A stretch of DNA of 64,000 nucleotides from a virus: the IMG/VR virus record IMGVR_UViG_3300045988_011398; one strand, 5' to 3'. The translations under genes were made by a program, and so were the position numbers. The notes below the pieces were generated by a model, which saw nothing but the letters and a program-made list of their open reading frames with translations, was not told the origin of the DNA and searched no databases. Each line of letters starts with the position of its first letter. Within the stretch, counting starts at the first letter, position 1. This document shows, piece by piece, positions 12,725 to 63,056 of this stretch.

Positions 12725-14410
12725 TTATTCCTCTTTACTAAATGTATTACTTTGTCTCTTCTCAAGAGTATTGTACCTCTTATAGAATGCTTCCATAGTA
12801 GCATCAATAAGTGTGGTAGCCAACTCATCTTCTCCATTTTCCAAAGCTACTTTAATAGCCTGCTGTGCTCTACTGAATGTTCTGTTCTGGTCATCAAGCA
12901 ATTCAGTATCAAGTATTGCTGACCTTGTTTTACCTTTACTATCAGTAGAATTGATAATGAATCCCAAATCAGGGTCAAAATCTATATCAGCATCTGATGT
13001 GAAGTAATTATTCAAATCTTCAATATCTACCTCATCACCCTTCTTATTATCATCAAGTTCCCATAGACCAGTGCTATTAGACCTTCTATAATATGACCTT
13101 GTATTCTCTTTCAATACCTGAGTTATCAAGTCACTCTGAGTGATATTAGGCTTATAAGAAAAAGCTCTTACTGCACTACTTCTAATATCATTTTCAAGTT
13201 TTTGGGCAAGCTCTCCAAGATTACCTCCTGTCAATACACCGTCTGTTAGGGTATAACTTACATTTCCATATCTTTTTGATAACTCAGTTAATTTTTCTCT
13301 GTAAGGATAGTATGTTTCCTGCCTTGTAGGTCCTGTGCCAGTGTCTATCCAGAAATTAGTCATTGGGTCAGGATTTATCAAGTGAGGCTCTCTTACTGTC
13401 CTTGTAGATGCTTGGTCAAGTAAAGCTGGATTAGCCAGTACCTCTCTTAATACTTGCAGGTCAGTATTCATTTGAGTAGTCTTCTTGTCACCATCTACAG
13501 TAGTTTTAGGAACAGCTCTATAATAGAGTCTTGCTTTCTCTTCTGCCTCTTTTGCAGCTCTGGCTCTTGCCTCTTTATTTCTTGCAAGTTGGTCTTGCAT
13601 TGCATAGTCATAAGCCTTATTAGACTGTATCTGATATTGAGTCTCTCCTACTGCATTCCATAGTCCTTGTCTTGCATATTCATAAGCTCTATTAAGAGTG
13701 GCTTGGTCTCCCCAGCTTGATATATTTGAGCTACCTACTGCATCCTCAACAATACCTTTTAATACTGAAGAAGCATTAGGGTCATTCTGCAATACCTGAA
13801 TAATCTCTTCAGGTCTATATCCCTTCTGCATGATAGTTTCAAAGTACTGATTACCAAGAATAGTTCTCCACTTTCTTGGATTATCTCTCATTTCCTTAGC
13901 CAAGTTCTGAGCAGCAGTCCCTACTTGTTTTGCAAGAGTGGCACCTGAATATGATTGATATGTAAGTTGAGGATTCTTAATCAAATCATCAAGACTGAGC
14001 ATAGAGGCATTCCTATCAAACATAAGTGTGTTATCCTGTGCCAACAACTTTCTTTGCTCATCAATCAATTCCTGTCTTCTCTTATATGCCTGTTCTATAG
14101 GGACTATATCACTTGAGTATCTTTGCTTCATTCTCAGCATATTCTGTCTACTTGCAGGAGTAAGACCCTCTCTTGCTAATTGACCAGCCTGTTCCTCAAG
14201 GTCATTTGAATATGTCTTGTACATCTTGTAAGCATAAGGGTCAGTCTGCTCATTAGCCATTTCATCCCATACATTAGCCTTAGTTGCCAACTCAGCATAT
14301 TCATTCTCAACTTCCTGATGTGCCAATGTTGCCATTTGTACTGGCTGAAGCATCTCTGCATAAGAGAAAGGTTTGAATTTACTATTTACTACAATATAAT
14401 TTGCTGCCAT
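12725..14410 (-). CDS. Hypothetical virion-associated protein (561 aa)
   Basis: Long ORF abutting its neighbours (2-nt and 1-nt gaps) inside the structural operon. Charged, coiled-coil-like composition. No motif recognised. Confidence 0.6.
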   Translation of the reverse strand: MAANYIVVNSKFKPFSYAEMLQPVQMATLAHQEVENEYAELATKANVWDEMANEQTDPYAYKMYKTYSNDLEEQAGQLAREGLTPASRQNMLRMKQRYSSDIVPIEQAYKRRQELIDEQRKLLAQDNTLMFDRNASMLSLDDLIKNPQLTYQSYSGATLAKQVGTAAQNLAKEMRDNPRKWRTILGNQYFETIMQKGYRPEEIIQVLQNDPNASSVLKGIVEDAVGSSNISSWGDQATLNRAYEYARQGLWNAVGETQYQIQSNKAYDYAMQDQLARNKEARARAAKEAEEKARLYYRAVPKTTVDGDKKTTQMNTDLQVLREVLANPALLDQASTRTVREPHLINPDPMTNFWIDTGTGPTRQETYYPYREKLTELSKRYGNVSYTLTDGVLTGGNLGELAQKLENDIRSSAVRAFSYKPNITQSDLITQVLKENTRSYYRRSNSTGLWELDDNKKGDEVDIEDLNNYFTSDADIDFDPDLGFIINSTDSKGKTRSAILDTELLDDQNRTFSRAQQAIKVALENGEDELATTLIDATMEAFYKRYNTLEKRQSNTFSKEE

Positions 14411-14411
14411 A

Positions 14412-48785: not shown

Positions 48786-48802
48786 AGCTTAACTAAAATT
48801 AG

Positions 48803-48872
48803 TTGCGGAGGTAGGAATTGAACCTACGGAGTCCAGCTTATGAGACTGGATTGAATACCAATTCTCCCCGCG
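48803..48872 (-). tRNA. tRNA-Met(CAT), irregular acceptor/D junction
   Basis: Anticodon arm CCAGT CTCATAA GCTGG and T arm GTAGG TTCAATT CCTAC. The acceptor is either 6 bp, or CGCGGGG/CTCCGCA with a C1xA72 mismatch. Confidence 0.6.
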
Positions 48873-48880
48873 ATGTTTAG

Positions 48881-48952
48881 TGCAGATAGACAGACTCGAA
48901 CTGTCACATTGACATTGGAAGTGTCACATACTGACCTTTATACTATACCTGC
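48881..48952 (-). tRNA. tRNA-Gly(TCC)
   Basis: Acceptor GCAGGTA/TATCTGC, anticodon arm TGACA CTTCCAA TGTCA, T arm GACAG TTCGAGT CTGTC. Confidence 0.8.
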
Positions 48953-48957
48953 ATTTG

Positions 48958-49030
48958 AGTAGATAACTGGATTTGAACCAGCCCCTTGACATTGGCAATG
49001 TCATATGCTAACCACTAACACCATACCTAC
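48958..49030 (-). tRNA. tRNA-Gly(GCC)
   Basis: Acceptor GTAGGTA/TATCTAC, anticodon loop TTGCCAA, T loop TTCAAAT, discriminator U. Confidence 0.8.
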
Positions 49031-49209
49031 ATAAAGCCAAAGATTTGCATCTGGTACTTTGGCATTGCAAGGTTTCACCTTAACTTGCACCCTCCTTCAC
49101 ATTCCACCCATATCCAGCTTGTTATAGTGTCAGCTCACTTTGGGGTTTCCATTGGACTAAGGAGTGTTAGCCTCTCACTGAATGGAATACAGCTTTTACT
49201 AACTTGTTG
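49031..49209 (-). other. 179-nt structured spacer inside the tRNA array (unassigned, possible ncRNA)
   Basis: No T-arm consensus, but several stable hairpins: GCCAAAG...CTTTGGC, AAGGT ttc ACCTT nested in GCAAG...CTTGC, and TTCCATT...AATGGAA. Confidence 0.3.
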
Positions 49210-49281
49210 AGGCTTCTGTCAGAATCGAACTGACATTACTGGGTTACAAAGCCAGTTTCCTAACCATTGAAAGAAGAAGCC
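49210..49281 (-). tRNA. tRNA-Thr(TGT)
   Basis: Acceptor GGCTTCT/AGAAGCC, T arm GTCAG TTCGATT CTGAC, anticodon loop TTTGTAA (31:39 C-C mismatch). Confidence 0.75.
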
Positions 49282-49285
49282 ATTG

Positions 49286-49369
49286 TAGCTCAAGAGGGAT
49301 TTGAACCCTCAATCCCTAAAGGGCGAGGGATTTTAAGTCCCTTGTGTATGCCAGTTCCACCATTGAGCC
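49286..49369 (-). tRNA. tRNA-Leu(TAA), type II
   Basis: Long variable arm, anticodon arm AGGGA CTTAAAA TCCCT, T arm GAGGG TTCAAAT CCCTC, G1:U72. Confidence 0.8.
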
Positions 49370-49377
49370 ATTATATA

Positions 49378-49830
49378 TTAATAAGGTCTAATATCACAAA
49401 GTTCAAATAGATACTTATACTTATTAATATTCTGAATGAATGTCTCACACTCTGAAGTAATACCTTTATATACAGTCTCCTGTGGTATCTTATCATAGAA
49501 TACTACAGTAGCACCTCTTACTTCATTTATGAAGTCTATAGCATTAAGAGTATCACTTGGAGTACCTTTTATAACATTAGGTTGCATCTTACCAAGTATT
49601 CCCATGTATCCTTCTGCAAGACTGTCTTGATAGTCTGAAAGTATGCTCAGAAATTCATCAAGATATACATGTATATTCTTCTTAGGTGCTGCCCAATGCA
49701 AGTTTTTACACTTTGTTTTCCACCCTTCAAGTCTATTCAAGAAGCTAATAAAGAACTCGGAAGGATTCATATTAGGGTCTTCTTGTTTCATTGTTTCAAG
49801 TGGTGTCAATAACATATCATCACCATACAT
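49378..49830 (-). CDS. Dps/ferritin-like four-helix protein (150 aa) embedded in the tRNA array
   Basis: KNLHWAAPKKNIHVYLDEF...DYQDSLAEGYMGILGK parallels the Dps signature (HW...H...D-x3-E ferroxidase ligands). Own promoter box at 49856-49863. Confidence 0.45.
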   Translation of the reverse strand: MYGDDMLLTPLETMKQEDPNMNPSEFFISFLNRLEGWKTKCKNLHWAAPKKNIHVYLDEFLSILSDYQDSLAEGYMGILGKMQPNVIKGTPSDTLNAIDFINEVRGATVVFYDKIPQETVYKGITSECETFIQNINKYKYLFELCDIRPY

Positions 49831-49855
49831 AAGCTTTATTGTTTATTTGATAATG

Positions 49856-49889
49856 CAAAGGTAAGTATTTTATTTGGAATATGCAAATA
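49856..49889 (-). promoter_or_regulatory. Bacteroidetes-type promoter (-7 TACCTTTG, -33 TTTGC)
   Basis: Gene-sense ATTTGCATATTCCAAATAAAATACTTACCTTTGCATTA, with the -7 box 26 nt upstream of the ATG at 49830. Confidence 0.65.
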
Positions 49890-49916
49890 AAATGCTAATT
49901 ATTTTTCAATTATTTG

Positions 49917-50005
49917 TACCCTCTGTGAGACTCGAACTCACACACTACTATTACTTCATCCCAGTTTCTAAGACTGGTGTGTCTACCAAATTCCACCAAG
50001 AGGGC
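49917..50005 (-). tRNA. tRNA-Leu(TAG), type II
   Basis: Anticodon arm CCAGT CTTAGAA ACTGG, T arm GTGAG TTCGAGT CTCAC, long variable region, G1:U72. Confidence 0.75.
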
Positions 50006-50011
50006 ATATTG

Positions 50012-50097
50012 TGCTCCTGAAGAGAGTCGAACTCTTAATCTCTATTTCAAGCCCTGACTTTTGAGGTCAGTGTGTATTCCAATTCCACCACAGGAGC
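50012..50097 (-). tRNA. tRNA-Leu(CAA), type II
   Basis: Acceptor GCTCCTG perfectly paired, anticodon arm CTGAC CTCAAAA GTCAG, T arm AAGAG TTCGACT CTCTT. Confidence 0.8.
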
Positions 50098-50103
50098 ATT
50101 ATG

Positions 50104-50179
50104 TGGGGACTCTGGGAATTGAACCACAAGCCTACAGTTTTTCAGACTGCCGTGCAATAACCACCTACACCAAGTCTCC
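50104..50179 (-). tRNA. tRNA-Phe(GAA)-like with a defective T stem
   Basis: Anticodon arm GCAGT CTGAAAA ACTGT is good. The T loop TTCAATT is flanked by only 2 clear base pairs. A3:C70 mismatch in the acceptor. Confidence 0.5.
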
Positions 50180-50247
50180 ATATTGACTTATTTGCATCTC
50201 TACCTGCATCACCTTCCATAAGTCAAGGACAAAAATTTCTATTGAAG

Positions 50248-50333
50248 TGGGAGTGGTAGGATTCGGACCTACTGAGTTTCTAATGTGCTGGTTTTACAGA
50301 CCAGTGCCCATCCACCATCTGAGCAGCACCCCC
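50248..50333 (-). tRNA. tRNA-Tyr(GTA), type II
   Basis: Acceptor GGGGGTG (one G:U), anticodon arm CTGGT CTGTAAA ACCAG, T arm GTAGG TCCGAAT CCTAC, long variable arm. Confidence 0.8.
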
Positions 50334-50341
50334 ATAATAAG

Positions 50342-50414
50342 TTCCCTCATAAGGAATCGAACCTTACTCTCAGGATTAAAAGTCCAGAGCATCCACCAAC
50401 AATGCTTTGAGGGA
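50342..50414 (-). tRNA. tRNA-Lys(TTT)
   Basis: Acceptor TCCCTCA/TGAGGGA, anticodon loop CTTTTAA, T arm TAAGG TTCGATT CCTTA. Confidence 0.75.
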
Positions 50415-50419
50415 ATATG

Positions 50420-50493
50420 TGCTCCCACAAGGACTCGAACCTTGAGTCCCCTGTTTAAGAGACAGGTGCTTTAACCAATTCAGCTATAGGAGC
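50420..50493 (-). tRNA. tRNA-Lys(CTT)
   Basis: Anticodon arm CCTGT CTCTTAA ACAGG, T arm CAAGG TTCGAGT CCTTG. Confidence 0.8.
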
Positions 50494-50500
50494 TTATAAG

Positions 50501-50575
50501 ACTTGGAGGTGGGATTTGAACCCACGAATCATCAGATTTGCAGTCTGTGCCCTTAGACCACTCAGGTACTCCAAG
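50501..50575 (-). tRNA. tRNA-Cys(GCA)
   Basis: Acceptor CTTGGAG/CTCCAAG, anticodon loop CTGCAAA, T arm GTGGG TTCAAAT CCCAC, discriminator U. Confidence 0.75.
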
Positions 50576-50579
50576 ATAG

Positions 50580-50651
50580 TACTGGTATAAGGACTTGAAC
50601 CTTCATCTTGAGTGTATAAGACTCCTGCACTAACCATTATGCTATACCAGT
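50580..50651 (-). tRNA. tRNA-Ile(TAT)
   Basis: Acceptor ACTGGTA/TACCAGT, anticodon loop CTTATAC (UAU anticodon, reads AUA), T loop TTCAAGT. Confidence 0.7.
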
Positions 50652-50658
50652 ATATTGG

Positions 50659-50730
50659 GGTGTCTGATGGGACTTGAACCCACACAATTTGGAGCCACAA
50701 TCCAAAGCTCTACCATTAAGCTACAGACAC
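50659..50730 (-). tRNA. tRNA-His(GTG)
   Basis: Acceptor GTGTCTG/CAGACAC, anticodon arm TTGGA TTGTGGC TCCAA, discriminator C. No G-1 is encoded. Confidence 0.75.
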
Positions 50731-50732
50731 AG

Positions 50733-50804
50733 TTCTGATGGATAGACTCGAACTATCAACTACTGCCTTATGAGAGCAGCTTTCTACCATTGAAATACAT
50801 CAGA
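50733..50804 (-). tRNA. tRNA-Met or Ile2 (CAT)
   Basis: Acceptor TCTGATG/CATCAGA, anticodon arm CTGCT CTCATAA GGCAG, T arm GATAG TTCGAGT CTATC. Confidence 0.75.
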
Positions 50805-50811
50805 ATATAAG

Positions 50812-50884
50812 TGGGCAAGTAAGGACTCGAACCTTCATTACTTGAATATCAGTCAAGCTTCCTGACCAATTAGAAGACATGCCC
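50812..50884 (-). tRNA. tRNA-Ile(GAT)
   Basis: Anticodon arm CTTGA CTGATAT TCAAG, T loop TTCGAGT, one U:U mismatch at 6:67. Confidence 0.7.
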
Positions 50885-50891
50885 ATTTTAG

Positions 50892-50964
50892 CTAAGGTGG
50901 CAGGACTTGAACCCACAACTGCTGGTTTTGGAGACCAGTGTTCTACCAATTGAACTACACCCTA
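50892..50964 (-). tRNA. tRNA-Trp(CCA)
   Basis: Anticodon arm CTGGT CTCCAAA ACCAG, T loop TTCAAGT, discriminator G. Confidence 0.8.
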
Positions 50965-50970
50965 ATTTAG

Positions 50971-51043
50971 TTGCAGGTAGTGGATTTGCACCACTGTTCC
51001 CCCCATTATGAGTGGGGCAAGATAACTACTTCTCCAACCTGCG
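50971..51043 (-). tRNA. tRNA-fMet-like (CAT) with a C1xA72 mismatch
   Basis: Acceptor CGCAGGT/ACCTGCA (C1 opposite A72, the bacterial initiator hallmark). Anticodon arm CCCCA CTCATAA TGGGG. Unusual T loop TGCAAAT. Confidence 0.7.
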
Positions 51044-51156
51044 GAAGAAACATCAAATCATGTGATTATGTCTCCTTATTGCACTCAGAGACTTTTCAGA
51101 AATGATGGCATCAAGTATTGCAAGCTACTTGACTGAACTTCTTGCAAAAGTTCTTG

Positions 51157-51228
51157 CGGGAAGTGTAGGACTCGAACCTACAGCCTGAGGATTAACAGTC
51201 CCCTGCTCTACCATTGAGCTAACAACCC
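51157..51228 (-). tRNA. tRNA-Asn(GTT) with two U:U mismatches in the acceptor stem
   Basis: Canonical D arm AGCTCAATGGTAGAGCA, anticodon loop CTGTTAA, T arm GTAGG TTCGAGT CCTAC. Acceptor GGGTTGT vs ACTTCCC. Confidence 0.6.
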
Positions 51229-51236
51229 ATTATTAG

Positions 51237-51310
51237 TTGCTCCTATTAGAATCGAACTAATGACCTTCTGTGTGTAAAACAGACATTCTGAACCACTGAA
51301 CTAAGGAGCA
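51237..51310 (-). tRNA. tRNA-Val(TAC)
   Basis: Acceptor TGCTCCT/AGGAGCA, anticodon arm TCTGT TTTACAC ACAGA, T arm ATTAG TTCGATT CTAAT. Confidence 0.8.
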
Positions 51311-51396
51311 ATGAAGGCAGTTTCTTTAATCTCTAACTGCCCAAAAGAGTGTCCAAAGCAAAAGCTCTAACATTATGAAAACATGAAAACAATGAG

Positions 51397-51469
51397 TGGA
51401 GAATGAGGGACTTGAACCCTAAACTCTTCTTTGCAAAAGAAGTGTGTTAGCCAATTACACCACAAACCC
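51397..51469 (-). tRNA. tRNA-Ala(TGC)-like with a poorly paired acceptor stem
   Basis: Anticodon arm CTTCT TTTGCAA AGAAG and D arm GTGT/ACAC are good, and G3:U70 is possible. Positions 4-7 of the acceptor are mismatched against ATTCTCC. Confidence 0.5.
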
Positions 51470-51475
51470 CATTAG

Positions 51476-51551
51476 TAGAGTAGACAAGACTCGAACTTGC
51501 AATATCACTGCATCCCAAATGCAGGGGGCTAACCAATTACCCTACTACTCT
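51476..51551 (-). tRNA. tRNA-Pro(TGG)
   Basis: Acceptor AGAGTAG/CTACTCT, anticodon arm CTGCA TTTGGGA TGCAG, T loop TTCGAGT. Confidence 0.75.
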
Positions 51552-51558
51552 ATATTTG

Positions 51559-51643
51559 CGGAGAGCATTGTACTCGAAACAAATGCCTTTTACAGCACAC
51601 ATTACTTAGCAGGTAAGTCCACTGCCTCAGTGGTTTACTCTCC
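51559..51643 (-). tRNA. tRNA-Ser(GCT), type II
   Basis: Anticodon loop CTGCTAA, long variable arm, T arm ATTGT TTCGAGT ACAAT, discriminator G. Confidence 0.75.
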
Positions 51644-51668
51644 ATTAATCAGCCTTTCAAAGAACATG

Positions 51669-51753
51669 CGGAGGAATGAGGTCCCGACCCCCAAGCATTT
51701 TACTGCTCAATCTGTTTTCAAGACAGTTCCCAGTCCCACTGAGTTACCCCTCC
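51669..51753 (-). tRNA. tRNA-Ser(TGA), type II, atypical T loop
   Basis: Anticodon loop CTTGAAA, variable arm AGCA...TGCT, discriminator G. T loop GTCGGGA deviates from the TTCRANY consensus. Confidence 0.6.
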
Positions 51754-51759
51754 ATTGGC

Positions 51760-51830
51760 AGGATGTGGGGGAATTGAACCCCAATCTCCTGATTGACAGT
51801 CAGGCACATTAACCACTATGCTACACACCC
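51760..51830 (-). tRNA. tRNA-Asp(GTC) with a 4-bp T stem
   Basis: Acceptor GGGTGTG/CACATCC (G3:U70), anticodon arm CCTGA CTGTCAA TCAGG, T arm GGGG TTCAATT CCCC. Confidence 0.65.
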
Positions 51831-51839
51831 TATAATATG

Positions 51840-51912
51840 TAGTGTCACTGAGAATTGAACTCAGATTTCCAGTTTGAGAGACTGGTTGCCTCACCATTTA
51901 GCAGATGACACC
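51840..51912 (-). tRNA. tRNA-Glu(CTC)
   Basis: Anticodon arm CCAGT CTCTCAA ACTGG, T arm CTGAG TTCAATT CTCAG. Confidence 0.8.
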
Positions 51913-51918
51913 ATTTAG

Positions 51919-51991
51919 TATTGGGTAGGAGACTTGAACTCCTCTCTTCAGATTGAAAGTCTGATGAACTGACCACCTATTCTAACCCAAC
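51919..51991 (-). tRNA. tRNA-Glu(TTC)
   Basis: Anticodon arm TCAGA CTTTCAA TCTGA, T arm AGGAG TTCAAGT CTCCT. Confidence 0.8.
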
Positions 51992-51998
51992 ATTTATG

Positions 51999-52070
51999 TA
52001 CCCCCTGAGGGAATCGAACCCCCATTAAAGGCTTAGAAGACCCTTGCATTATCCATTATACTAAGAGGGC
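51999..52070 (-). tRNA. tRNA-Arg(TCT)
   Basis: Anticodon loop CTTCTAA, T loop TTCGATT, acceptor GCCCTCT with two G:U pairs. Confidence 0.7.
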
Positions 52071-52078
52071 ATTTATTG

Positions 52079-52150
52079 TTGCTGTTAGAGGACTCGAACC
52101 TCTACTATAAGAGCCAAAATCTTATGTGACTACCATTACACCAAACAGCA
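52079..52150 (-). tRNA. tRNA-Gln(TTG)
   Basis: Acceptor TGCTGTT/AACAGCA, anticodon arm TAAGA TTTTGGC TCTTA, T arm AGAGG TTCGAGT CCTCT. First gene of the array. Confidence 0.8.
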
Positions 52151-53866: not shown

Positions 53867-54701
53867 ATTGTGTGCAATGTTTTATGATTCAATTAATTAA
53901 GTCTGTGAACTGAATGAAACTGGTTCACCTTATAAATTGAACTTATGCAGTGCTGTAGTCAGGTGAAGGTAGTAATGCAAAACCCCTCACTACTTTGCCA
54001 ATTTGAATCATCAACAAATCACCATCAATCTGTAATGTATAGCTAAATTTACTGAGTGCAACACAAAATCAAACTATTGATAACCTGATTAAATATCACC
54101 CCAATGCACAATATTGCCCAGTTTATTTGTGAATAATAGTAGCAAAAGACACCAAACACAGGGCTAAATGTGTGAGAGAACAAACTAATAATCCTATAAT
54201 CACTGATTAGTCATACATTATTTCTTATTTAGACTACTGAGGAGCATGACTTAATGAAAGTTAGCTGGGAAGTAAAGATACATACACCTCCAAGGACTGT
54301 GTGAGATTAAAAGGGTGATTTCATCACTCAGAATACATCAATAGCTTAGTGAGTGGAAAGGAATAGACTCAACTTAGAACCCAGAAACAAGTAATGAGTA
54401 AGATTGTGAACTGTGTATCCAATATTGTGTAGTAAAATAAAATATGATGTAGTAAAGTGGCACAGGTTTATGTTCAGTGCATTAAATAGGTAATGGAGAC
54501 TAAAGAGACATACATTATATAATAATATTGTCTTGGATAAAGTCTGACCTTCTATCTTTACAGGATTAATCAAGAGAACTACAAAGCACATTAGTTTAAT
54601 GGAAAACATTATTGAGGTATAGTACTTAATAATATGATGGTTCAAATCCATCATGTGCTTCAATTAACAAACAACAATCAATCAATCAAACTTTCAAACA
54701 A

Positions 54702-55550: not shown

Positions 55551-56321
55551 GTGGGAGTAGGAAACTGCTCCCACTTAAATAAACAAATAATCATGGTACG
55601 AACAATTTATGTAGTATTTGTAGAAGACAAAGTGTCAAACACTTCTCACTTGAAGGAATACATGTTCCTGTGTCCTTTTGACTATATCAGGGTTGGAGAT
55701 ATTATCAAAGACCCAAGATATGTACCTTACATGCAGGTGACAAAGATTACTCCTTGCTCTGCAAGAGTACAGGAAGGCTTTACCTTGAAGGATATTCAGA
55801 TTGAGAGTCTGAATAAGAGAAAGGTAGTAGCAACTCAAGGTAGTGATTTTGACATTGACAAGCGGAGAAACAACATGGAAACAAGAAACATCAGTATCAC
55901 TCTTGAACAGGCAATGGAGTGGTACAACAGTGGAAATGCCACACTGAGAACATTGGCATTGAATGCTTATACAAAGGATGAGTTGGAACTCAACTATGGC
56001 TTGATTGAATCCAAAGTAGACCAAGCCTGTGGGTGTTTCAATACTCCTATGTGTGAGCAGAAGAAGTTCCAAGTACTTGCAAAGCTGGCTATCATTGCCA
56101 AGCACTATAACAAGAATTGGAAGAAGACTACCTGCAACACAGGATATTTCCTTGGTAATTACAACAATGGAAATGGTCCTGTAGTTGAGTGCTGCAAGGG
56201 TGTTGGTGTATATCAGCACAATACAGTACAGTATGCAGGGGTTGTGTACTTCAAGAACCAAGAGGATGCTATCAAAGCAGTCAAGATTCTTGGTGATGAA
56301 GTCAAAGAACTGTTCAAATAG
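55551..56321 (+). CDS. Hypothetical protein (256 aa; alternative start at 55593)
   Basis: Balanced composition, unlike the Leu/Ile/Cys-rich antisense ORF 55635-56261. Followed by a terminator. Confidence 0.55.
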   Translation: MGVGNCSHLNKQIIMVRTIYVVFVEDKVSNTSHLKEYMFLCPFDYIRVGDIIKDPRYVPYMQVTKITPCSARVQEGFTLKDIQIESLNKRKVVATQGSDFDIDKRRNNMETRNISITLEQAMEWYNSGNATLRTLALNAYTKDELELNYGLIESKVDQACGCFNTPMCEQKKFQVLAKLAIIAKHYNKNWKKTTCNTGYFLGNYNNGNGPVVECCKGVGVYQHNTVQYAGVVYFKNQEDAIKAVKILGDEVKELFK

Positions 56322-56383: not shown

Positions 56384-56457
56384 GCTGCCATAGCTCAATT
56401 GGATAGAGCAACAGACTTCTAATCTGTAGGTTCTGAGTTCGAGTCTCAGTGGTAGTA
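56384..56457 (+). tRNA. tRNA-Arg(TCT), second copy, + strand
   Basis: Acceptor GCTGCCA/TGGTAGT (two G:U), D arm GCTC AATTGGATA GAGC, anticodon arm ACAGA CTTCTAA TCTGT, T arm CTGAG TTCGAGT CTCAG. Confidence 0.8.
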
Positions 56458-56494
56458 CAACAATAAACAATTAAACAATTAAACATTTAATCTT

Positions 56495-56721: not shown

Positions 56722-57183
56722 ATGGGACAGAAATGGCAATATTACGGTTTATTTCTTAATAAAGAGGCAAAAATACAATTATTTACAATGGTAGTAGCGA
56801 ATTTTTTGAATAATATTAAGAACCCCAACAAAGTATGTTTGGACCATTGTACTTTATTGCATAAATCTCAATTAGACAATGATAATACCATATTCCTTAA
56901 TAGATGTATAAAATCCAGACTTGATTATCTATTGGAGAATAATATAATCAGAGCTAAATTGATGATTACCTCAGTAGGTATATCTGAAAAAGCTATGGCT
57001 TTCAAAGTTATAATTCTTAATAATAATGAGGGAATATATGACTATGAAATCTGTGCTAACGAGATACCACATATTACTATTTGCACATTTAATGGTGGTA
57101 AGCCAGTAGATAGTAATAATATTGTTAAGTGGCATGATTTAGATGAGCCTATAGAGATTGAAACAACACTAAAAAGAGTATAA
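56722..57183 (+). CDS. 2H phosphoesterase superfamily protein (two HxT motifs), Acb1-like or LigT-like
   Basis: 153 aa. LDHCTLLH (H42-x-T44) and IPHITICT (H117-x-T119). Size and motif spacing are those of small 2H cyclic-nucleotide/2',3'-cyclic phosphodiesterases. Confidence 0.6.
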   Translation: MGQKWQYYGLFLNKEAKIQLFTMVVANFLNNIKNPNKVCLDHCTLLHKSQLDNDNTIFLNRCIKSRLDYLLENNIIRAKLMITSVGISEKAMAFKVIILNNNEGIYDYEICANEIPHITICTFNGGKPVDSNNIVKWHDLDEPIEIETTLKRV

Positions 57184-57184
57184 A

Positions 57185-57511
57185 ATGAAAATAACTTCAC
57201 TACAACAATTAAAAGACTGGAATAATCAATATGCTGTTGGTTCAACTTTTAGAAAAGAACATGATGAAGCTAAATTTCCTATCTTATTAGAATGGTTTCT
57301 TGATTGGTTCTTTGAAGAAGCTTTATTAGATATAGAAGTAGCAAGAGAGGCTTTTAATGAATATGTAAATTTTGCCTATATATGTACAGAGCTTCCACCA
57401 GAAGCTTCTCTTGGAAGGTGCTTACATAACCTTAATTATTGGTATGATAGAGCATCCTATTATAATTCAAGAGCAAAACAATTTAAGAAATTTAAGGCAG
57501 AGTGTTTATAA
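57185..57511 (+). CDS. Hypothetical protein (108 aa)
   Basis: ORF 1 nt after the upstream stop. Trp/Phe/Glu-rich. Confidence 0.45.
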   Translation: MKITSLQQLKDWNNQYAVGSTFRKEHDEAKFPILLEWFLDWFFEEALLDIEVAREAFNEYVNFAYICTELPPEASLGRCLHNLNYWYDRASYYNSRAKQFKKFKAECL

Positions 57512-57531: not shown

Positions 57532-58065
57532 ATGAACAAGAAACTAAGATTGCTTGTTACGACAGATTGTCCTAACAAGTGCCCTATGTGCTGCAATAAT
57601 CAGTTTGATTTCAGCAAACTGCCTGTAGTAGATAGGTGGAATTATGATGAAATCATGATTACTGGAGGTGAACCTTTGTTGTTTACAGATACTTTAGTAG
57701 AGGTATTAATTTCCATAAAAGAATTAAGTTCTCTCACTGGAAACCATCCTAAACTATTTATTTATACTGCTGATTGCACTAACAAGATTATTAAAGTCTT
57801 ACCCCATGTTGATGGTATAGTACTTACTCCACACAAGCAATCAGATATTGTACACTTTATTGAACTAAATAAGTTCATACTTGTACATAAGACCCAATTT
57901 TATATCCGAGATACATCACTTAGATTAAATCTTTTTCCTGACATGAAAGCCCTCTTACCTAAAGATATTGATTTATCATTATGGGAAGTAAAAGATATGG
58001 AGTGGATAGAAAACTGTCCAGTTCCAGAGGGTGAGGACTTCAGGAGAATAGCTAATTTATGGTAA
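57532..58065 (+). CDS. Small radical-SAM enzyme (177 aa), NrdG/QueE-sized
   Basis: CPNKCPMC (CxxxCxxC) at residues 13-20 and IMITGGEPLLF (GGE SAM-binding motif). Confidence 0.6.
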   Translation: MNKKLRLLVTTDCPNKCPMCCNNQFDFSKLPVVDRWNYDEIMITGGEPLLFTDTLVEVLISIKELSSLTGNHPKLFIYTADCTNKIIKVLPHVDGIVLTPHKQSDIVHFIELNKFILVHKTQFYIRDTSLRLNLFPDMKALLPKDIDLSLWEVKDMEWIENCPVPEGEDFRRIANLW

Positions 58066-58400: not shown

Positions 58401-58725
58401 GGGGCATGATTTGGTTTTGATTGCTGATTATCAGGTAAGAGAACATGCAGAGACTGATGGAGAGACATCAAACAATTAACTGGCAATACTTCTTATAGAG
58501 TTGCTGCCTAAACATAGGCTGAGCAGCACTTGCTTGGAAACAGAAAGGTGCAATAGTGGTGGATTTTCCTTATTTATCTGACCCTGACAAGTTAAATAAG
58601 GTGGTGGAATGGTATGTCAATCCGGGCAACCCCAGTAGATAACCAACTGCACATCAAATAGGTAAGCATGTGAAATTCTTTTACAGGAGATTAGTAAGAC
58701 AGGGGTTCGAGTCCCCTATGCTCCA
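58401..58725 (+). ncRNA. ssrA: tmRNA (ssrA-like) with tag ORF GNTSYRVAA-stop
   Basis: 5' GGGGCATGATTTGGTTTTGATTGC matches the tmRNA 5' consensus. 3' GACAGGGGTTCGAGTCCCCTATGCTCCA gives a T arm plus acceptor. Acceptor GGGGCAT/ATGCTCC has G3:U70 (Ala identity). Internal frame GGC AAT ACT TCT TAT AGA GTT GCT GCC TAA lies at 58482-58511. CCA is not encoded. Confidence 0.85.
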
Positions 58726-58752
58726 CATTAAACTTAATTAATTCTTAAAACA

Positions 58753-59429: not shown

Positions 59430-60839
59430 ATGAGTAAAGTAAATCCGTCATTGAAGAAAACCTCAAAGTTTGAGGAAGAAAGATTGGCTGGTGGTTCAGG
59501 TGCATTAGCAGCTAAACAGAGTAATGTTGCATTGTTGAGGAGAGCAGTATTAGCTAATCTTCTTTGGGAAGATGTAGCATACATGGATGGAATGAAGGTT
59601 GCTGAAGAAATTCAGAGATTGATTCCTTTGTGTCCTGCTGAAGATGTATATCACATTGCTCTTGAAGCAAGGACAATGCAGAAGTTAAGACATACTCCTT
59701 TATTCCTTGCAGTGGAAATGTGCAAGTATCCTGAGCATAAGAAGTTTGTGCAAGAATTGCTGCCTCAGATTATCACAAGAGCAGACATGCTTACTGATTT
59801 CTTGGCTATTTATTGGAGGGATGGTAAGAAACCTATTGCTAATCAAGCAAAGAAAGGTTTGGCAAAGGCATTCCATAATTTCAATGAATACAAGTTTGCT
59901 AAATATGATAGAGATGCAGCTATTAAGCTGAGAGATGTCATGTTCTTATGCAGACCTAAGCCTGAGAATCAGTATGAGCAGACTTTGTTCAAGAAGGTAG
60001 CAGATAGAACTCTTGCAACACCTGAGACATGGGAAGTGCTACTGTCTACTGGAAAGGATAAGAAAGAGTCTTGGGCTAAACTTATCACTGAAGGTAAGAT
60101 TGGTGGTCTGGCTATGTTGAGAAATATAGCCAACATGAGAAGAGCAAGTGTGGACAAGAAGGTGATTGAAGAAGGTCTTGAGAAGTTGAAATCTTCAATG
60201 CTCATGCCTTTGGACTTCTTGAAAGCAAATAAAATGAACCCTGAGTTCAGCAGACAGATAGAGGATGCTATGATAAGTAGCTATGCTAATTTGCCTGAGT
60301 TGAAAGGTAAGACTCTTTTCATTGTGGATGTGTCAGGTTCTATGCAAGCTCCAATGTCTGCAAAATCTGATTTCAGCAGATATGATGCAGCATGTGCTAT
60401 GGCTATGTTAGCAGCCAATCAGTGTGAGGACTATGAAATAGTTTGTACTGCTGGTAATGACTACTCTCATACAGGAGCACATGAGCATATTCCTTATCCT
60501 CAGAAAGGTTTTGGAATCTTTGAACAAATCCATAGCACTAATAGGAGAATTGGAGGTGGAGGTATATTCACCAGACAATGCCTTGAATGGTGTAATGACA
60601 AGTTCAAGGGTCAGAAGTTTGATAGAATCATTGTATTCTCAGACTCTCAAGACTGTGACTTGCCTGCAAGGAGAGTTCCTAAACCTTTTGGTACTTACAA
60701 CTATATTTGTGATGTGTCAGCACACACAAAAGGTGTAAACTACAGAGGTGCATGGACTGCTGAGATAAGTGGCTTCTCGGAGCATTTCATCACATTCATT
60801 GCAGCAATGGAAGGTATTCAGAATACCTTTGAAGAATAA
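59430..60839 (+). CDS. rsr: Ro60-like protein (TROVE domain + vWA domain with a MIDAS motif), Rsr ortholog candidate
   Basis: 469 aa. N-terminal RLAGGSGALAAKQSNVALLRRAVLANLLWEDVAY and VYHIALEARTMQKLRHTPLFLAVEM resemble TROVE signatures. C-terminal LFIVDVSGSMQAPMS (DxSxS MIDAS) and IIVFSDSQD indicate a vWA fold. A Y-RNA-like element starts 4 nt after the stop. Confidence 0.7.
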   Translation: MSKVNPSLKKTSKFEEERLAGGSGALAAKQSNVALLRRAVLANLLWEDVAYMDGMKVAEEIQRLIPLCPAEDVYHIALEARTMQKLRHTPLFLAVEMCKYPEHKKFVQELLPQIITRADMLTDFLAIYWRDGKKPIANQAKKGLAKAFHNFNEYKFAKYDRDAAIKLRDVMFLCRPKPENQYEQTLFKKVADRTLATPETWEVLLSTGKDKKESWAKLITEGKIGGLAMLRNIANMRRASVDKKVIEEGLEKLKSSMLMPLDFLKANKMNPEFSRQIEDAMISSYANLPELKGKTLFIVDVSGSMQAPMSAKSDFSRYDAACAMAMLAANQCEDYEIVCTAGNDYSHTGAHEHIPYPQKGFGIFEQIHSTNRRIGGGGIFTRQCLEWCNDKFKGQKFDRIIVFSDSQDCDLPARRVPKPFGTYNYICDVSAHTKGVNYRGAWTAEISGFSEHFITFIAAMEGIQNTFEE

Positions 60840-60993: not shown

Positions 60994-61125
60994 GGAGGAG
61001 TTAGCTCAGTTGGTAGAGCACTTAAATGTTACTCTGTCAAATGTTCCATAGTAATATTGGTGGCAGATAGAGTTACTTCGGTATGTGGAACCAGTGGTCA
61101 TAGGTTCGAGTCCTATACTCCTCCC
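60994..61125 (+). ncRNA. tRNA-like RNA 1: canonical acceptor, D and T arms, with ~74 nt in place of the anticodon arm
   Basis: GGAGGAGT...ACTCCTCC (8 bp possible), D arm GCTC AGTTGGTA GAGC, T arm ATAGG TTCGAGT CCTAT. The insert contains stem ACTCTGTC/GATAGAGT, a GTAA-capped hairpin and the motif AGAGTTACTTCGGT. Confidence 0.55.
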
Positions 61126-61243: not shown

Positions 61244-61375
61244 GGGGATGTAGCTAAATAAATTCATACTCTTATGCCTTTTCTCTGGTAAAGCAGTAGT
61301 GTTTGTAAGAGTTACTTCGGTTATAGCATTTGTCTTGTAAACAAAAGTATATTGGTTCGAGTCCAATCATCCCCG
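61244..61375 (+). ncRNA. tRNA-like RNA 2, paralog of tRNA-like RNA 1
   Basis: Acceptor GGGGATG/CATCCCC, T arm ATTGG TTCGAGT CCAAT, degenerate D region. The insert has a covarying stem ACTCTTA/TAAGAGT followed by the same AGAGTTACTTCGGT motif. Same 5' flank CAATATGG as RNA 1. Confidence 0.55.
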
Positions 61376-62513: not shown

Positions 62514-63056
62514 ATGGCAGAATTTGTATATTTCAAGAATGCTTGTAGGATGTGGTATCCTGTAGGACAGTATTTCTCTTCAGATAACTTTGATTATATA
62601 AGAGAAGCTGCATCTTCCATTAATAAAGTATTCCCAACAGGTAAACTTATCTTGGTAGTAAGAGGACACTCAGGCTCCATACTTGCAGGTGGTATAGCAT
62701 ATATACTGAAAAGAAAAGACAGGGATGTATTAATATCTGTGTCAAGGAAAGCAGAATCTACTCATGGTGATAATCTTGAAGGTATATCATCATATACTGT
62801 ATCAGGTGACACACACATAATAGTTGTTGATGACTTTGTTCAAACAGGTGAAACTATTGAGGCTATACTCAAAGATTTGACTGAAAGAATAGAGGATATG
62901 AAAGTATTTGACATGTTATGTGTTGCTAATCACTGGGATGAGGATGATTTGACTGAGGAAGGAGGAAAGAGAGGAACTAACAGATATTGGGAGGCAAACA
63001 AAAGGATTGCTTCTCATTTTGAGTATATATTGTGTAACAGACCAGATGAGGAATGA
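62514..63056 (+). CDS. Type I phosphoribosyltransferase-fold protein (180 aa)
   Basis: PRPP-binding signature HIIVVDDFVQTGETI, upstream LILVVRGHSGSILAG loop. Confidence 0.55.
   Translation: MAEFVYFKNACRMWYPVGQYFSSDNFDYIREAASSINKVFPTGKLILVVRGHSGSILAGGIAYILKRKDRDVLISVSRKAESTHGDNLEGISSYTVSGDTHIIVVDDFVQTGETIEAILKDLTERIEDMKVFDMLCVANHWDEDDLTEEGGKRGTNRYWEANKRIASHFEYILCNRPDEE

What the first reader, a model, noticed from the sequence alone, without database searches (positions are those of the whole stretch)
56722..57183. Small 2H phosphoesterase: anti-CBASS (Acb1-like) nuclease or RNA 2',3'-cyclic phosphodiesterase
The 153-aa ORF carries the two diagnostic HxT motifs of the 2H superfamily (DHCTLL at residue 42, PHITIC at residue 117). 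Its size and spacing are similar to phage Acb1 enzymes, which destroy cyclic oligonucleotide immune signals. They are equally similar to LigT/CPDase enzymes, which act on 2',3'-cyclic phosphate RNA ends. Both readings are interesting here. One is anti-defence. The other is healing of tRNA/tmRNA/Y-RNA ends after cleavage by host anticodon nucleases, given the surrounding tRNA, tmRNA and Ro60 genes.
Basis: partly seen in the sequence, partly recalled or inferred. Interest (0 to 1): 0.65.

Follow-up and report, generated by a model that had tools for sequence, protein, structure and literature searches.

The report
Phage stand-alone Trl1-type RNA cyclic phosphodiesterase
A gut crAss-like phage carries a small enzyme gene whose closest relatives are the RNA-end "healing" domain of fungal tRNA ligase and brain CNPase, not the anti-CBASS nuclease Acb1, so it most likely opens the 2',3'-cyclic phosphate ends left on RNA cut by host nucleases.

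Summary
The ORF at 56722-57183 (+, 153 aa) is real. It has H42-C-T44 and H117-I-T119 exactly as described, and 532 homologues conserve them. The only Pfam hit is PF08302, the fungal tRNA ligase (Trl1) cyclic phosphodiesterase (CPD) domain (E 5.7e-9, above the curated cut-off). A confident AlphaFold model (pLDDT 89.7) matches Candida Trl1 KIN-CPD (6U05) best, then CNPase.

The Trl1-CPD-specific active-site pattern recurs at the same spacings and is 85-99% conserved: Tyr on strand 1, HxTxxH, NxxxHxT, and Asn 15 residues after the second His.

It is not Acb1. It does not hit the Pfam Acb1 model, which T4 57B hits at 2.7e-60. The profile comparison gives 1% probability.

The family is large, almost all stand-alone, and confined to phage or phage-like contigs, mainly of gut Bacteroidota. 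It is accessory and moves between phage lineages.

Here it lies among tRNA, tmRNA, Ro60/TROVE, Band-7 and NAD-salvage genes, but it is not obligately linked to TROVE. Relatives encode a split Pnkp-like kinase and phosphatase. Rare homologues are fused to a Tpt1-like domain. No RNA ligase was found.

Most likely function: an RNA 2',3'-cyclic phosphodiesterase. An anti-signal nuclease role is not excluded.

Verdict: new member of a known kind, moderate interest.

The parts
56722..57183 (+). Gene for a 153-aa stand-alone 2H phosphoesterase of the Trl1-CPD/CNPase clade (stop codon included)
   Evidence: ORF. Pfam PF08302 at E 5.7e-9. 532 homologues. AF2 pLDDT 89.7. Top PDB fold match 6U05.
56740..56754 (+). 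Strand beta-1, Y7-Y8-G9-L10-F11. Y7 is the candidate aromatic residue that packs on the terminal nucleoside, the counterpart of Trl1 Tyr647 and ThpR Phe8.
   Evidence: Y7 is 96% and G9 92% conserved. The model has a strand at residues 7-12. The role of Tyr647 is taken from PMC7145591.
56845..56862 (+). Proximal catalytic motif H42-C-T44-L-L-H47 (HxTxxH)
   Evidence: Read directly from the sequence. H42 and T44 are 98% conserved. H47 is 85% conserved and is otherwise F or Y. The spacing is the same as Trl1 His682-x-Thr684-x-x-His687.
57058..57078 (+). Distal catalytic motif N113-E-I-P-H117-I-T119 (NxxxHxT)
   Evidence: Read directly from the sequence. Conservation: N113 95%, H117 99%, T119 98%. 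The spacing is the same as Trl1 Asn763...His767-x-Thr769.
57100..57117 (+). K127-P-V-D-S131-N132 at the start of the short helix after the distal motif. N132 lies at His+15, like Trl1 Asn782, which makes a water-bridged phosphate contact.
   Evidence: Conservation: K127 92%, S131 99%, N132 98%. The model has a helix at residues 128-133.
56384..56458 (+). Context only: tRNA-Arg(TCT) just upstream. A tRNA-Arg lies 0.35-1.8 kb from the 2H gene in most crAss-like loci.
   Evidence: This is synteny. No functional link is shown.
57532..58065 (+). Context only: small HxsC-like radical-SAM protein. Its orthologue in PhiCrAssBcn1 lies beside the split Pnkp-like kinase/phosphatase genes.
58401..58728 (+). 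Context only: phage tmRNA
59430..60839 (+). Context only: Ro60/TROVE protein, 2.2 kb downstream. It is syntenic with the 2H gene in 15 of 26 loci but is not obligately co-inherited.

Best explanation
The gene encodes a minimal, stand-alone, metal-independent 2',3'-cyclic phosphodiesterase of the Trl1-CPD/CNPase branch of the 2H superfamily. Inferred mechanism: an RNA 3' end, or a nucleotide, that carries a 2',3'-cyclic phosphate sits in the cleft between the two HxT strands. The terminal nucleoside is sandwiched by Y7 and H47. H117 and T119, together with H42 and T44, hold the phosphate, and N113 and N132 make water-bridged contacts. One His activates water and the other protonates the 3'-O leaving group. 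The product is a 3'-OH,2'-phosphate end, the regiochemistry of Trl1, CNPase and ThpR. Inferred biology: in an infected Bacteroidales cell it opens the cyclic-phosphate ends left on tRNA, tmRNA, mRNA or rRNA by metal-independent host RNases such as anticodon nucleases, HEPN RNases and toxin endoribonucleases. This is the first step of RNA 3'-end healing. The 2'-phosphate would then be removed by a phosphatase or a Tpt1-like enzyme. Relatives of this phage carry a split T4-Pnkp-like kinase plus DxDxT phosphatase, and some distant homologues are fused to a Tpt1-like domain. The healed end could then be resealed, re-extended or degraded. Shown here: family membership, fold, conserved catalytic constellation, phage restriction and genomic context. 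Inferred: substrate, product, partners and benefit to the phage.
For: PF08302 is the only Pfam hit, above its gathering score, and it spans both motifs; nearly all homologues carry it. The AF2 model has pLDDT 89.7 and pTM 0.84. The best PDB match is the Candida Trl1 KIN-CPD structure 6U05 (E 2.3e-6, TM 0.67), followed by mouse and human CNPase and goldfish RICH. The best viral matches are 740-770-aa giant-virus proteins, one annotated 'RNA ligase'. The active-site elements described for Trl1 CPD in PMC7145591 recur at identical spacings and are 85-99% conserved in 240 family members: beta-1 Tyr, HxTxxH, Asn at His-4, and Asn at His+15. Context fits RNA metabolism. The gene sits among single tRNA genes, a tmRNA, Ro60/TROVE and Band-7, next to a 27-tRNA array. 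In unrelated 140-186-kb phage-like contigs the gene again lies about 3 kb from a Band-7 gene and among tRNAs. PhiCrAssBcn1, which carries the 2H gene, encodes a PseT-like P-loop polynucleotide kinase and an adjacent DxDGT phosphatase; Lak phages have the 2H gene and the phosphatase, and at least Lak-B1 also has the kinase. Two distant homologues are fused to a domain whose model matches Tpt1/KptA RNA 2'-phosphotransferases best. Another is fused to a pol-beta-type nucleotidyltransferase.
Against: No RNA ligase was recognised in the window, in the further 14.4 kb of the source contig reached outside the window, or among the large unassigned ORFs of PhiCrAssBcn1, so a complete heal-and-seal pathway is not demonstrated. 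The Pnkp-like pair was not found in the 78 kb of this phage that could be read; 23 kb remain unseen. A 2'-phosphate end is not a substrate for the RtcB ligase (established knowledge). The gene is accessory: 7 of 24 PhiCrAssBcn isolates grown on one host strain lack it. It occurs without TROVE in the DAC19 group, Kolpuevirus and Lak phages, and TROVE occurs without it in crAss001, cr106_1 and cr112_1. Immediate neighbours are not conserved across lineages. The counterparts of Trl1 Glu680 and Gln678 are not conserved; position His-2 is Leu and D41 sits at His-1. 2H enzymes have repeatedly been recruited to degrade immune signals. No biochemistry exists for any member of this family.
Confidence: 0.6

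Rival explanations
1. It is an anti-defence nuclease that destroys a nucleotide immune signal, such as a CBASS cyclic di- or trinucleotide, a type III CRISPR cyclic oligoadenylate or a 2'-5'-linked signal. On this reading it works like Acb1 or the viral 2',5'-phosphodiesterases but evolved independently on a Trl1-CPD scaffold.
For: The family is phage-restricted, with only two MAG contigs among 185,579 species genomes. It is accessory and moves horizontally: a 78%-identical copy lies in an unrelated 175-kb phage-like contig next to an HNH endonuclease. It sits in an accessory region that also carries NAD+ salvage genes (PRTase, NAMPT) typical of counter-defence. Its size and motif spacing resemble Acb1. 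Acb1 and viral 2H phosphodiesterases appear among the weaker fold matches.
Against: It does not hit Pfam Acb1 PF23474 even at E<=10, whereas T4 57B hits it at 2.7e-60. hhalign gives 1.1% probability, and BLASTP aligns only the PHIT motif. The Acb1 fold match is weak (E 4.4e-3, TM 0.44) against Trl1 CPD (E 2.3e-6, TM 0.67). The conserved non-catalytic residues are those of the Trl1 CPD phosphate and nucleoside site. The known fusion partners are RNA-end enzymes (Tpt1-like, nucleotidyltransferase), not signal-binding modules. PADLOC gave no hit.
Confidence: 0.2
2. It is a small-molecule cyclic phosphodiesterase. [quoted passage not shown]
For: Rare family members are fused to a Tpt1-like domain, and the Tpt1 reaction releases Appr>p. 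NAMPT and a phosphoribosyltransferase lie 5-7 kb downstream. CNPase, the second-best structural match, hydrolyses free 2',3'-cyclic nucleotides (established knowledge).
Confidence: 0.12
3. It acts against repair or as an end-marking enzyme. By converting 2',3'>P ends to 2'-phosphate ends it would stop the host RtcB ligase from resealing RNAs, or remove the 2',3'>P RNA and nucleotide cues that host stress or defence sensors read.
For: RtcB needs 2',3'>P or 3'-P ends, and a 2'-P,3'-OH end is not its substrate (established knowledge). No phage ligase was found. Iyer et al. (PMC7824862) proposed that phage 2H enzymes may remove cyclic-phosphate products that could signal attack on the translation apparatus.
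Against: This is purely inferential. Co-occurrence with a Pnkp-like kinase and phosphatase in relatives fits repair better than sabotage. No sensor of this kind is known in Bacteroides.
Confidence: 0.08

Closest known systems
CPD domain of fungal/plant tRNA ligase Trl1 (Pfam PF08302; structure 6U05, Candida albicans KIN-CPD)
   Same: It is the only Pfam family hit and the best structural match. Both have dual HxT motifs with the clade-specific extras at the same spacings: beta-1 Tyr, HxTxxH, Asn at His-4 and Asn at His+15. Neither has a ThpR-type Arg. The expected chemistry is 2',3'>P to 3'-OH,2'-PO4.
   Different: The phage protein is stand-alone and much shorter: 153 aa, aligning to model positions 105-221 of 250. 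Trl1 carries a roughly 190-aa CPD domain fused to kinase and ligase domains. No ligase was seen in the phage. The Glu680 and Gln678 counterparts are not conserved. Identity is about 18%. The host is a bacteriophage of Bacteroidales, not a eukaryote.
Vertebrate CNPase / RICH catalytic domain
   Same: It is the second tier of structural matches (E 3e-4, TM about 0.63). It belongs to the same 2H sub-branch, and CNP can replace Trl1 CPD in yeast.
   Different: The catalytic domain is about 210 aa with extra elements. The Pfam CNPase model does not hit the phage protein. Identity is 11-14%.
Phage anti-CBASS nuclease Acb1 (T4 gp57B; Pfam PF23474)
   Same: It is a small stand-alone phage 2H enzyme of the same length, with HxT motifs at nearly the same positions (H44/H113 against H42/H117) and a shared PHIT[IL] distal motif.
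   Different: There is no family-level sequence similarity, and the fold match is much weaker. Acb1 cleaves 3'-5' bonds of cyclic oligonucleotides and uses a C-terminal lid. In this model the C-terminus is a long sheet strand at residues 137-152.
Bacterial ThpR/LigT RNA 2',3'-cyclic phosphodiesterase
   Same: It is a stand-alone bacterial-world 2H enzyme that heals RNA>p ends to 2'-phosphate. It has aromatic residues at the positions equivalent to Y7 and H47.
   Different: Neither LigT_PEase nor 2_5_RNA_ligase2 hits the phage protein in Pfam. The essential ThpR Arg130, five residues after the distal His, is Thr122 here.
T4 Pnkp (PseT) end-healing enzyme
   Same: It serves the same biological purpose in a phage, healing nuclease-cut tRNA ends. 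Relatives of this phage carry PseT-like kinase and DxDxT phosphatase genes.
   Different: The fold and chemistry are unrelated: a P-loop kinase plus an HAD phosphatase that leaves 2',3'-OH ends. In T4 it is paired with the ligase Rnl1.

Membership tests
2H phosphoesterase superfamily | Two H-x-T/S motifs about 70-90 residues apart | tested here: met
   H42-C-T44 and H117-I-T119, 98-99% conserved in 240 homologues.
2H phosphoesterase superfamily | 2H fold, with the two HxT strands facing each other in a central cleft | tested here: met
   The AF2 model has pLDDT 89.7, with strands at 42-47 and 117-122. All significant PDB matches are 2H enzymes.
Trl1-CPD family (Pfam PF08302) / CNPase branch | Scores above the curated threshold of the family model | tested here: met
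   36.3 bits against a gathering score of 23, E 5.7e-9, and no other family hit. PF08302 is precomputed on nearly all homologues.
Trl1-CPD family (Pfam PF08302) / CNPase branch | Closest solved structures are Trl1 CPD and CNPase | tested here: met
   6U05 ranks first (E 2.3e-6, TM 0.67), and the CNPase/RICH structures fill the rest of the top 50.
Trl1-CPD family (Pfam PF08302) / CNPase branch | Clade-specific active-site motifs from PMC7145591: beta-1 aromatic, HxTxxH, Asn at distal His-4, Asn in the following helix, and Glu at proximal His-2 | tested here: inconclusive
   Y7, H47, N113 and N132 are present at identical spacings and are 85-98% conserved. The Glu680 and Gln678 counterparts are absent (L40, V38), with D41 at His-1. 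The correspondence rests on spacing, not on a residue-level superposition.
Trl1 tRNA ligase (full enzyme) | CPD fused to a GTP-dependent kinase and an ATP-dependent ligase domain | tested here: not met
   The protein is 153 aa with a single domain. The family is almost entirely stand-alone proteins of 130-160 aa. No P-loop or ligase domain was found in the longer members examined.
Trl1-CPD family (Pfam PF08302) / CNPase branch | Hydrolyses RNA 2',3'-cyclic phosphate to 3'-OH,2'-phosphate | not testable with these tools
   This needs an enzyme assay.
Acb1 anti-CBASS nucleases (Pfam PF23474) | Matches the Acb1 family model | tested here: not met
   No hit at E<=10. The positive control, T4 57B, scores 202.7 bits at E 2.7e-60.
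Acb1 anti-CBASS nucleases (Pfam PF23474) | Detectable homology to T4 Acb1 beyond the catalytic motifs | tested here: not met
   hhalign gives 1.1% probability over 15 columns. The best BLASTP segment is 11 residues at E 0.34. The Foldseek match to an annotated Acb1 has E 4.4e-3 and TM 0.44.
Acb1 anti-CBASS nucleases (Pfam PF23474) | Cleaves 3'3'-cGAMP or cA3 and rescues phage from CBASS | not testable with these tools
   This needs biochemistry and plaque assays.
LigT/ThpR bacterial 2H family (PF02834, PF13563) | Matches the LigT family models and has the essential Arg five residues after the distal His | tested here: not met
   No Pfam hit. Position His117+5 is Thr122, which is Thr in 88% of the family.

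The most novel reading that the evidence does not exclude
The Trl1-CPD scaffold has been recruited by phages of gut Bacteroidota as a new class of counter-defence enzyme, unrelated to Acb1. One version: it destroys a nucleotide immune signal. The other: together with a phosphatase or Tpt1-like partner, it forms a ligase-independent pathway that resets the 3' ends of tRNA or tmRNA cut by host defence RNases. If so, this large and abundant phage family would also be the closest prokaryote-world relative of the eukaryotic Trl1-CPD/CNPase branch, and possibly its source.
Probability: 0.18. Interest if true: 0.75.

Novelty: new member of a known kind. Interest (0 to 1): 0.42.

Why it matters
crAss-like phages are among the most abundant viruses of the human gut, and most of their accessory genes have no assigned function. 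Every GenBank copy of this gene seen here is annotated 'hypothetical protein'.

Assigning it to the Trl1-CPD/CNPase branch gives a concrete, cheaply testable activity. It also adds an end-healing enzyme to the set of RNA-related genes in these phages: large tRNA arrays, tmRNA, Ro60, and a Pnkp-like kinase/phosphatase in relatives. That points to RNA cleavage as a main battleground between Bacteroides and their phages.

It also shows that a domain catalogued as 'fungal' has a large phage-borne clade. That bears on the origin of the eukaryotic tRNA-ligase healing module.

Natural PhiCrAssBcn isolates with and without the gene on one host strain offer a ready genetic comparison.

Tried and rejected
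1. A conserved two-gene module with the 74-aa upstream ORF. The three annotated reference loci inspected (PhiCrAssBcn1, DAC19, Kolpuevirus) all have a 72-75-aa ORF upstream, but these ORFs are not homologous. One metagenomic protein (P0114) fuses such an ORF to the 2H domain, probably through a local deletion or a gene-call artefact.

2. The 242-aa upstream protein as a partner. Its C-terminal domain of about 150 aa is a multi-copy family scattered through these genomes and is not specifically linked.

3. An obligate functional link with Ro60/TROVE. This was rejected because each gene occurs without the other.

4. A Tpt1-like gene in this phage. The profile search of all six frames of the window and all loci found it only in the fusion protein. 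The 250-aa and 266-aa neighbours are unrelated.

5. A Pnkp-like kinase or phosphatase in this phage. Neither was found in the 78 kb that could be read; 23 kb could not be reached.

6. An RNA ligase. None was recognised.

7. PHROGs, NCBIfam, PADLOC and PDB sequence searches, with the single sequence and with the profile, gave no hits.

8. Cellular homologues whose operons might have been informative. There are essentially none.

9. Pfam on the extra domains of longer family members. It found only a nucleotidyltransferase in one. An N-terminal zinc ribbon in six others remains unassigned.

10. Literature. No paper in the library mentions PF08302, and none combines crAss-like phages with a cyclic phosphodiesterase. 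Burroughs & Aravind 2016 could not be read and is cited from memory only.

Full report
**Observation.** It runs from an ATG at 56722 to a stop codon ending at 57183 on the + strand and encodes 153 aa. D41-H42-C43-T44-L45-L46 is encoded at 56842-56859 and P116-H117-I118-T119-I120-C121 at 57067-57084. The gene lies in a tightly packed co-directional array. The upstream ORF ends 2 nt before it and the next ORF starts 1 nt after it, so co-transcription is likely (inference). It is a real, conserved gene. There are 532 homologues at E<=1e-3 in the 5.8-billion-protein collection. A profile search of 1.84 billion cluster representatives found 955 clusters at 50% identity.

**Source of the window.** The window comes from a 101,371-bp crAss-like phage contig assembled from a human gut metagenome. 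At the nucleotide level its TROVE gene is about 75% identical to those of Mahstovirus cr106_1 and the phiCrAss001-like PhiCrAssBcn phages of Bacteroides intestinalis.

**Family assignment.**
- At E<=10 the only Pfam hit is PF08302, "Fungal tRNA ligase phosphodiesterase domain". It scores E 5.7e-9 and 36.3 bits against a curated cut-off of 23, and it covers residues 26-140 and therefore both HxT motifs.
- PHROGs, NCBIfam, PADLOC and PDB sequence searches, with a single sequence or a profile, return nothing.
- An AlphaFold2 model built from a 28-sequence alignment is confident, with pLDDT 89.7 and pTM 0.84.
- Against the PDB its best match is 6U05, the Candida albicans Trl1 kinase-CPD structure (E 2.3e-6, TM 0.67). 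All other top matches are mouse and human CNPase and goldfish RICH.
- Against predicted viral structures the best matches are 740-770-aa giant-virus proteins, one annotated "RNA ligase". An annotated Acb1 ranks 13th (E 4.4e-3, TM 0.44).

**Active site.** Banerjee et al. (PMC7145591) describe the Trl1 CPD active site.
- His682/Thr684 and His767/Thr769 hold the phosphate.
- His687 (His+5) and the beta-1 residue Tyr647 are imputed to pack on the terminal nucleoside.
- Asn763 (His-4) and Asn782 (His+15, in the next helix) make water-bridged phosphate contacts.
- There is no counterpart of the essential ThpR Arg130.

The phage protein has Y7 on its first strand, H42-x-T44-x-x-H47, N113-x-x-x-H117-x-T119, and N132 exactly 15 residues after H117 in a predicted short helix. 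T122 sits where ThpR has its Arg.

Conservation across 240 family members:

| Residue | Conserved |
|---|---|
| Y7 | 96% |
| H42 | 98% |
| T44 | 98% |
| H47 | 85% (otherwise F or Y) |
| N113 | 95% |
| H117 | 99% |
| T119 | 98% |
| S131 | 99% |
| N132 | 98% |

The counterparts of Glu680 and Gln678 are not conserved. The correspondence rests on identical spacing plus the fold match. I could not make a residue-level superposition.

**Not Acb1 and not LigT.**
- Pfam holds an Acb1 model, PF23474. T4 gp57B, fetched as a control, hits it at 2.7e-60. The phage protein does not hit it at all.
- A profile comparison with T4 Acb1 gives 1.1% probability over 15 columns.
- BLASTP aligns only PHIT[IL].
- The similarity in length and motif positions is therefore generic to small 2H enzymes.
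- Neither LigT Pfam model hits either.

**Distribution.**
- Family members are almost all stand-alone proteins of 130-160 aa. They lie on contigs of about 100 kb (crAss-like) or 140-190 kb.
- In GenBank phages, tblastn finds the gene in 17 of the 24 PhiCrAssBcn isolates, in Kolpuevirus, in the 179-kb Bacteroides phages DAC19, DAC20 and DAC22, and weakly in Lak megaphages. It is always annotated "hypothetical protein".
- A scan of one genome from each of 185,579 prokaryotic species found two hits, both on MAG contigs, at least one of which looks like a phage. The family is therefore essentially phage-restricted.
- The closest homologue of the window protein, at 78% identity, lies in an unrelated 175-kb phage-like contig, next to an HNH endonuclease and with entirely different neighbours. 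The gene therefore moves on its own.

**Genomic context.**
- Around the gene are tRNA-Arg (56384-56458), a small HxsC-like radical-SAM gene, a Myb-like gene, a tmRNA (58401-58728), a DUF1360-like gene, Ro60/TROVE (59430-60839) and tRNA-Lys. Downstream of these lie a tRNA-like RNA and a phosphoribosyltransferase. Just beyond the window end lie NAMPT and a Band-7/SPFH gene. A 27-tRNA array lies 5-8 kb upstream.
- Clustering of neighbours in 26 loci shows the DUF1360-like gene in 16 and TROVE in 15. A tRNA-Arg lies within 0.35-1.8 kb in most crAss-like loci.
- In the unrelated loci L007 and L035 the gene again lies about 3 kb from a Band-7 gene and among tRNAs.
- The link to TROVE is not obligate. 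crAss001, cr106_1, cr112_1, PhiCrAssBcn13 and PhiCrAssBcn17 have TROVE but gave no 2H hit. The DAC19 group, Kolpuevirus and Lak phages have the 2H gene but gave no TROVE hit.
- The 74-aa upstream ORF is not conserved.

**Possible pathway partners.**
- PhiCrAssBcn1, which carries the 2H gene, encodes a P-loop kinase. It hits Pfam AAA_33 at 2.7e-13, and tblastn links it to T-even PseT at 26-29% identity. Next to it lies a DxDGT HAD-type phosphatase, so together they form a split T4-Pnkp-like pair.
- Lak phages carry the phosphatase, and at least Lak-B1 carries the kinase.
- I did not find this pair in the 78 kb of the window's phage that I could read. Twenty-three kb remain unseen.
- No RNA ligase was recognised anywhere.
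- Among distant family members, one is fused to a pol-beta-type nucleotidyltransferase.
- Two others, P0252 and P0265, share a 250-aa domain that also exists as a stand-alone phage family without a Pfam model. Its AlphaFold model has pLDDT 81.8. Its seven best PDB matches are all Tpt1/KptA RNA 2'-phosphotransferases (E 3e-5 to 1.8e-3, probability 0.99-1.0), followed by DarT1. The TM-scores are low, at 0.27-0.42.
- In the fungal pathway, CPD creates the 2'-phosphate that Tpt1 later removes. This fusion is therefore independent, though rare and indirect, support for a role in 2'-phosphate RNA chemistry. That Tpt1-like family is absent from the window and from the crAss-like loci.

**Interpretation.**
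- The biochemical activity I consider most likely, at about 0.6 together with the RNA-end role, is hydrolysis of 2',3'-cyclic phosphate ends to 3'-OH,2'-phosphate. It would serve to heal RNA cut by metal-independent host RNases.
- This agrees with the general view of phage 2H enzymes in Iyer et al. (PMC7824862). From memory only, it also agrees with Burroughs & Aravind 2016, who listed TROVE and Band-7 modules as cofactors of RNA repair systems. That paper could not be read here.
- What happens to the 2'-phosphate end is unknown, because no ligase was found.
- The rivals are as follows. First, an Acb1-like anti-signal nuclease evolved on this scaffold (0.2). This fits the phage-restricted, accessory and mobile character of the gene and the nearby NAD-salvage genes, but it is contradicted by the family assignment. 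Second, a small-molecule cyclic phosphodiesterase acting on Appr>p or 2',3'-cNMP (0.12). Third, an end-marking or anti-RtcB role (0.08).

**Novelty and verdict.** The enzyme class and fold are known, and 2H enzymes have been noted in jumbo phages. I found no description of this large, stand-alone, phage-restricted clade of the "fungal" Trl1-CPD family, nor of its presence in crAss-like phages. I rate it a new member of a known kind and of moderate interest.

Noticed in passing
window 60995-61124 (+); also 61310-61367 (+): Just downstream of the Ro60/TROVE gene and tRNA-Lys lies a 130-nt tRNA-like RNA. Its acceptor, D and T arms are intact, but a 70-nt insertion replaces the anticodon arm (Rfam tRNA, 46 bits). 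ARAGORN does not call it, and the YrlA model scores only 20.8 bits against a gathering score of 69. A second, partial tRNA-like element without an acceptor stem follows. These are candidate Y-RNA-like or tRNA-like partners of the phage Ro60.
   Followed up: partly
window 54585-54661 (+): ARAGORN calls a tRNA-like gene with a four-base 'anticodon' (atag), and Rfam tRNA scores it at 47 bits. Unassigned 'tRNA-???' genes lie at similar offsets upstream of the 2H gene in L001, L023 and L032.
   Followed up: no
window 62514-63056 (+) and beyond the window end (L034:10773-12305, 13658-14494): A phosphoribosyltransferase, a 510-aa NAMPT (NAMPT_N plus NAPRTase domains) and a Band-7/SPFH protein lie downstream. 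Together they look like an NAD+ salvage and counter-defence block in the same co-directional array.
   Followed up: partly
L010:135-1003 (PhiCrAssBcn1, record 135-1006): phiCrAss001-like phages encode a split T4-Pnkp-like pair: a P-loop polynucleotide kinase (AAA_33, similar to PseT) and an adjacent 146-aa DxDGT HAD phosphatase. No recognisable RNA ligase is present in the genome.
   Followed up: partly
proteins P0267-P0290 (alignment A4); loci L039, L040, L041: This is a family of phage proteins of about 250 aa with no Pfam model. Its AlphaFold model matches Tpt1/KptA RNA 2'-phosphotransferases best, then DarT1. Stand-alone members sit between thymidine kinase and a RecA-like gene in two of the three loci examined. 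Two metagenomic proteins fuse the domain to the CPD domain.
   Followed up: partly
window 55593-56321 (+): This 242-aa protein has a C-terminal domain of about 150 aa with no Pfam hit. The domain is present in several paralogous copies per genome in crAss-like phages (three in Kolpuevirus locus L003) and also in the unrelated locus L007.
   Followed up: partly
window 57532-58065 (+): A 177-aa HxsC-like radical-SAM protein with a CPNKCPMCC cluster motif lies one gene (the 108-aa ORF at 57185-57511) downstream of the 2H gene. Its orthologue in PhiCrAssBcn1 (phmmer E 1.7e-72) lies elsewhere, near the Pnkp-like pair, so the accessory genes have been rearranged.
   Followed up: no
proteins P0152, P0153, P0198, P0212, P0216, P0217: Six family members carry an N-terminal zinc-ribbon extension of about 100 aa (CxxC...CxxCGGWH[VI]T) of unknown function. 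P0261 is a tandem duplication of the CPD domain.
   Followed up: no
L042:3109-3181: The 175-kb phage-like contig that carries the closest homologue (78% identity) encodes a suppressor-type tRNA with anticodon CTA. This suggests TAG stop-codon recoding in that phage.
   Followed up: no
window 48802-52150 (-): An array of 27 tRNA genes covers most amino acids. With the single tRNAs and the tmRNA on the + strand, it amounts to an unusually complete set of translation RNAs for a 101-kb phage.
   Followed up: no
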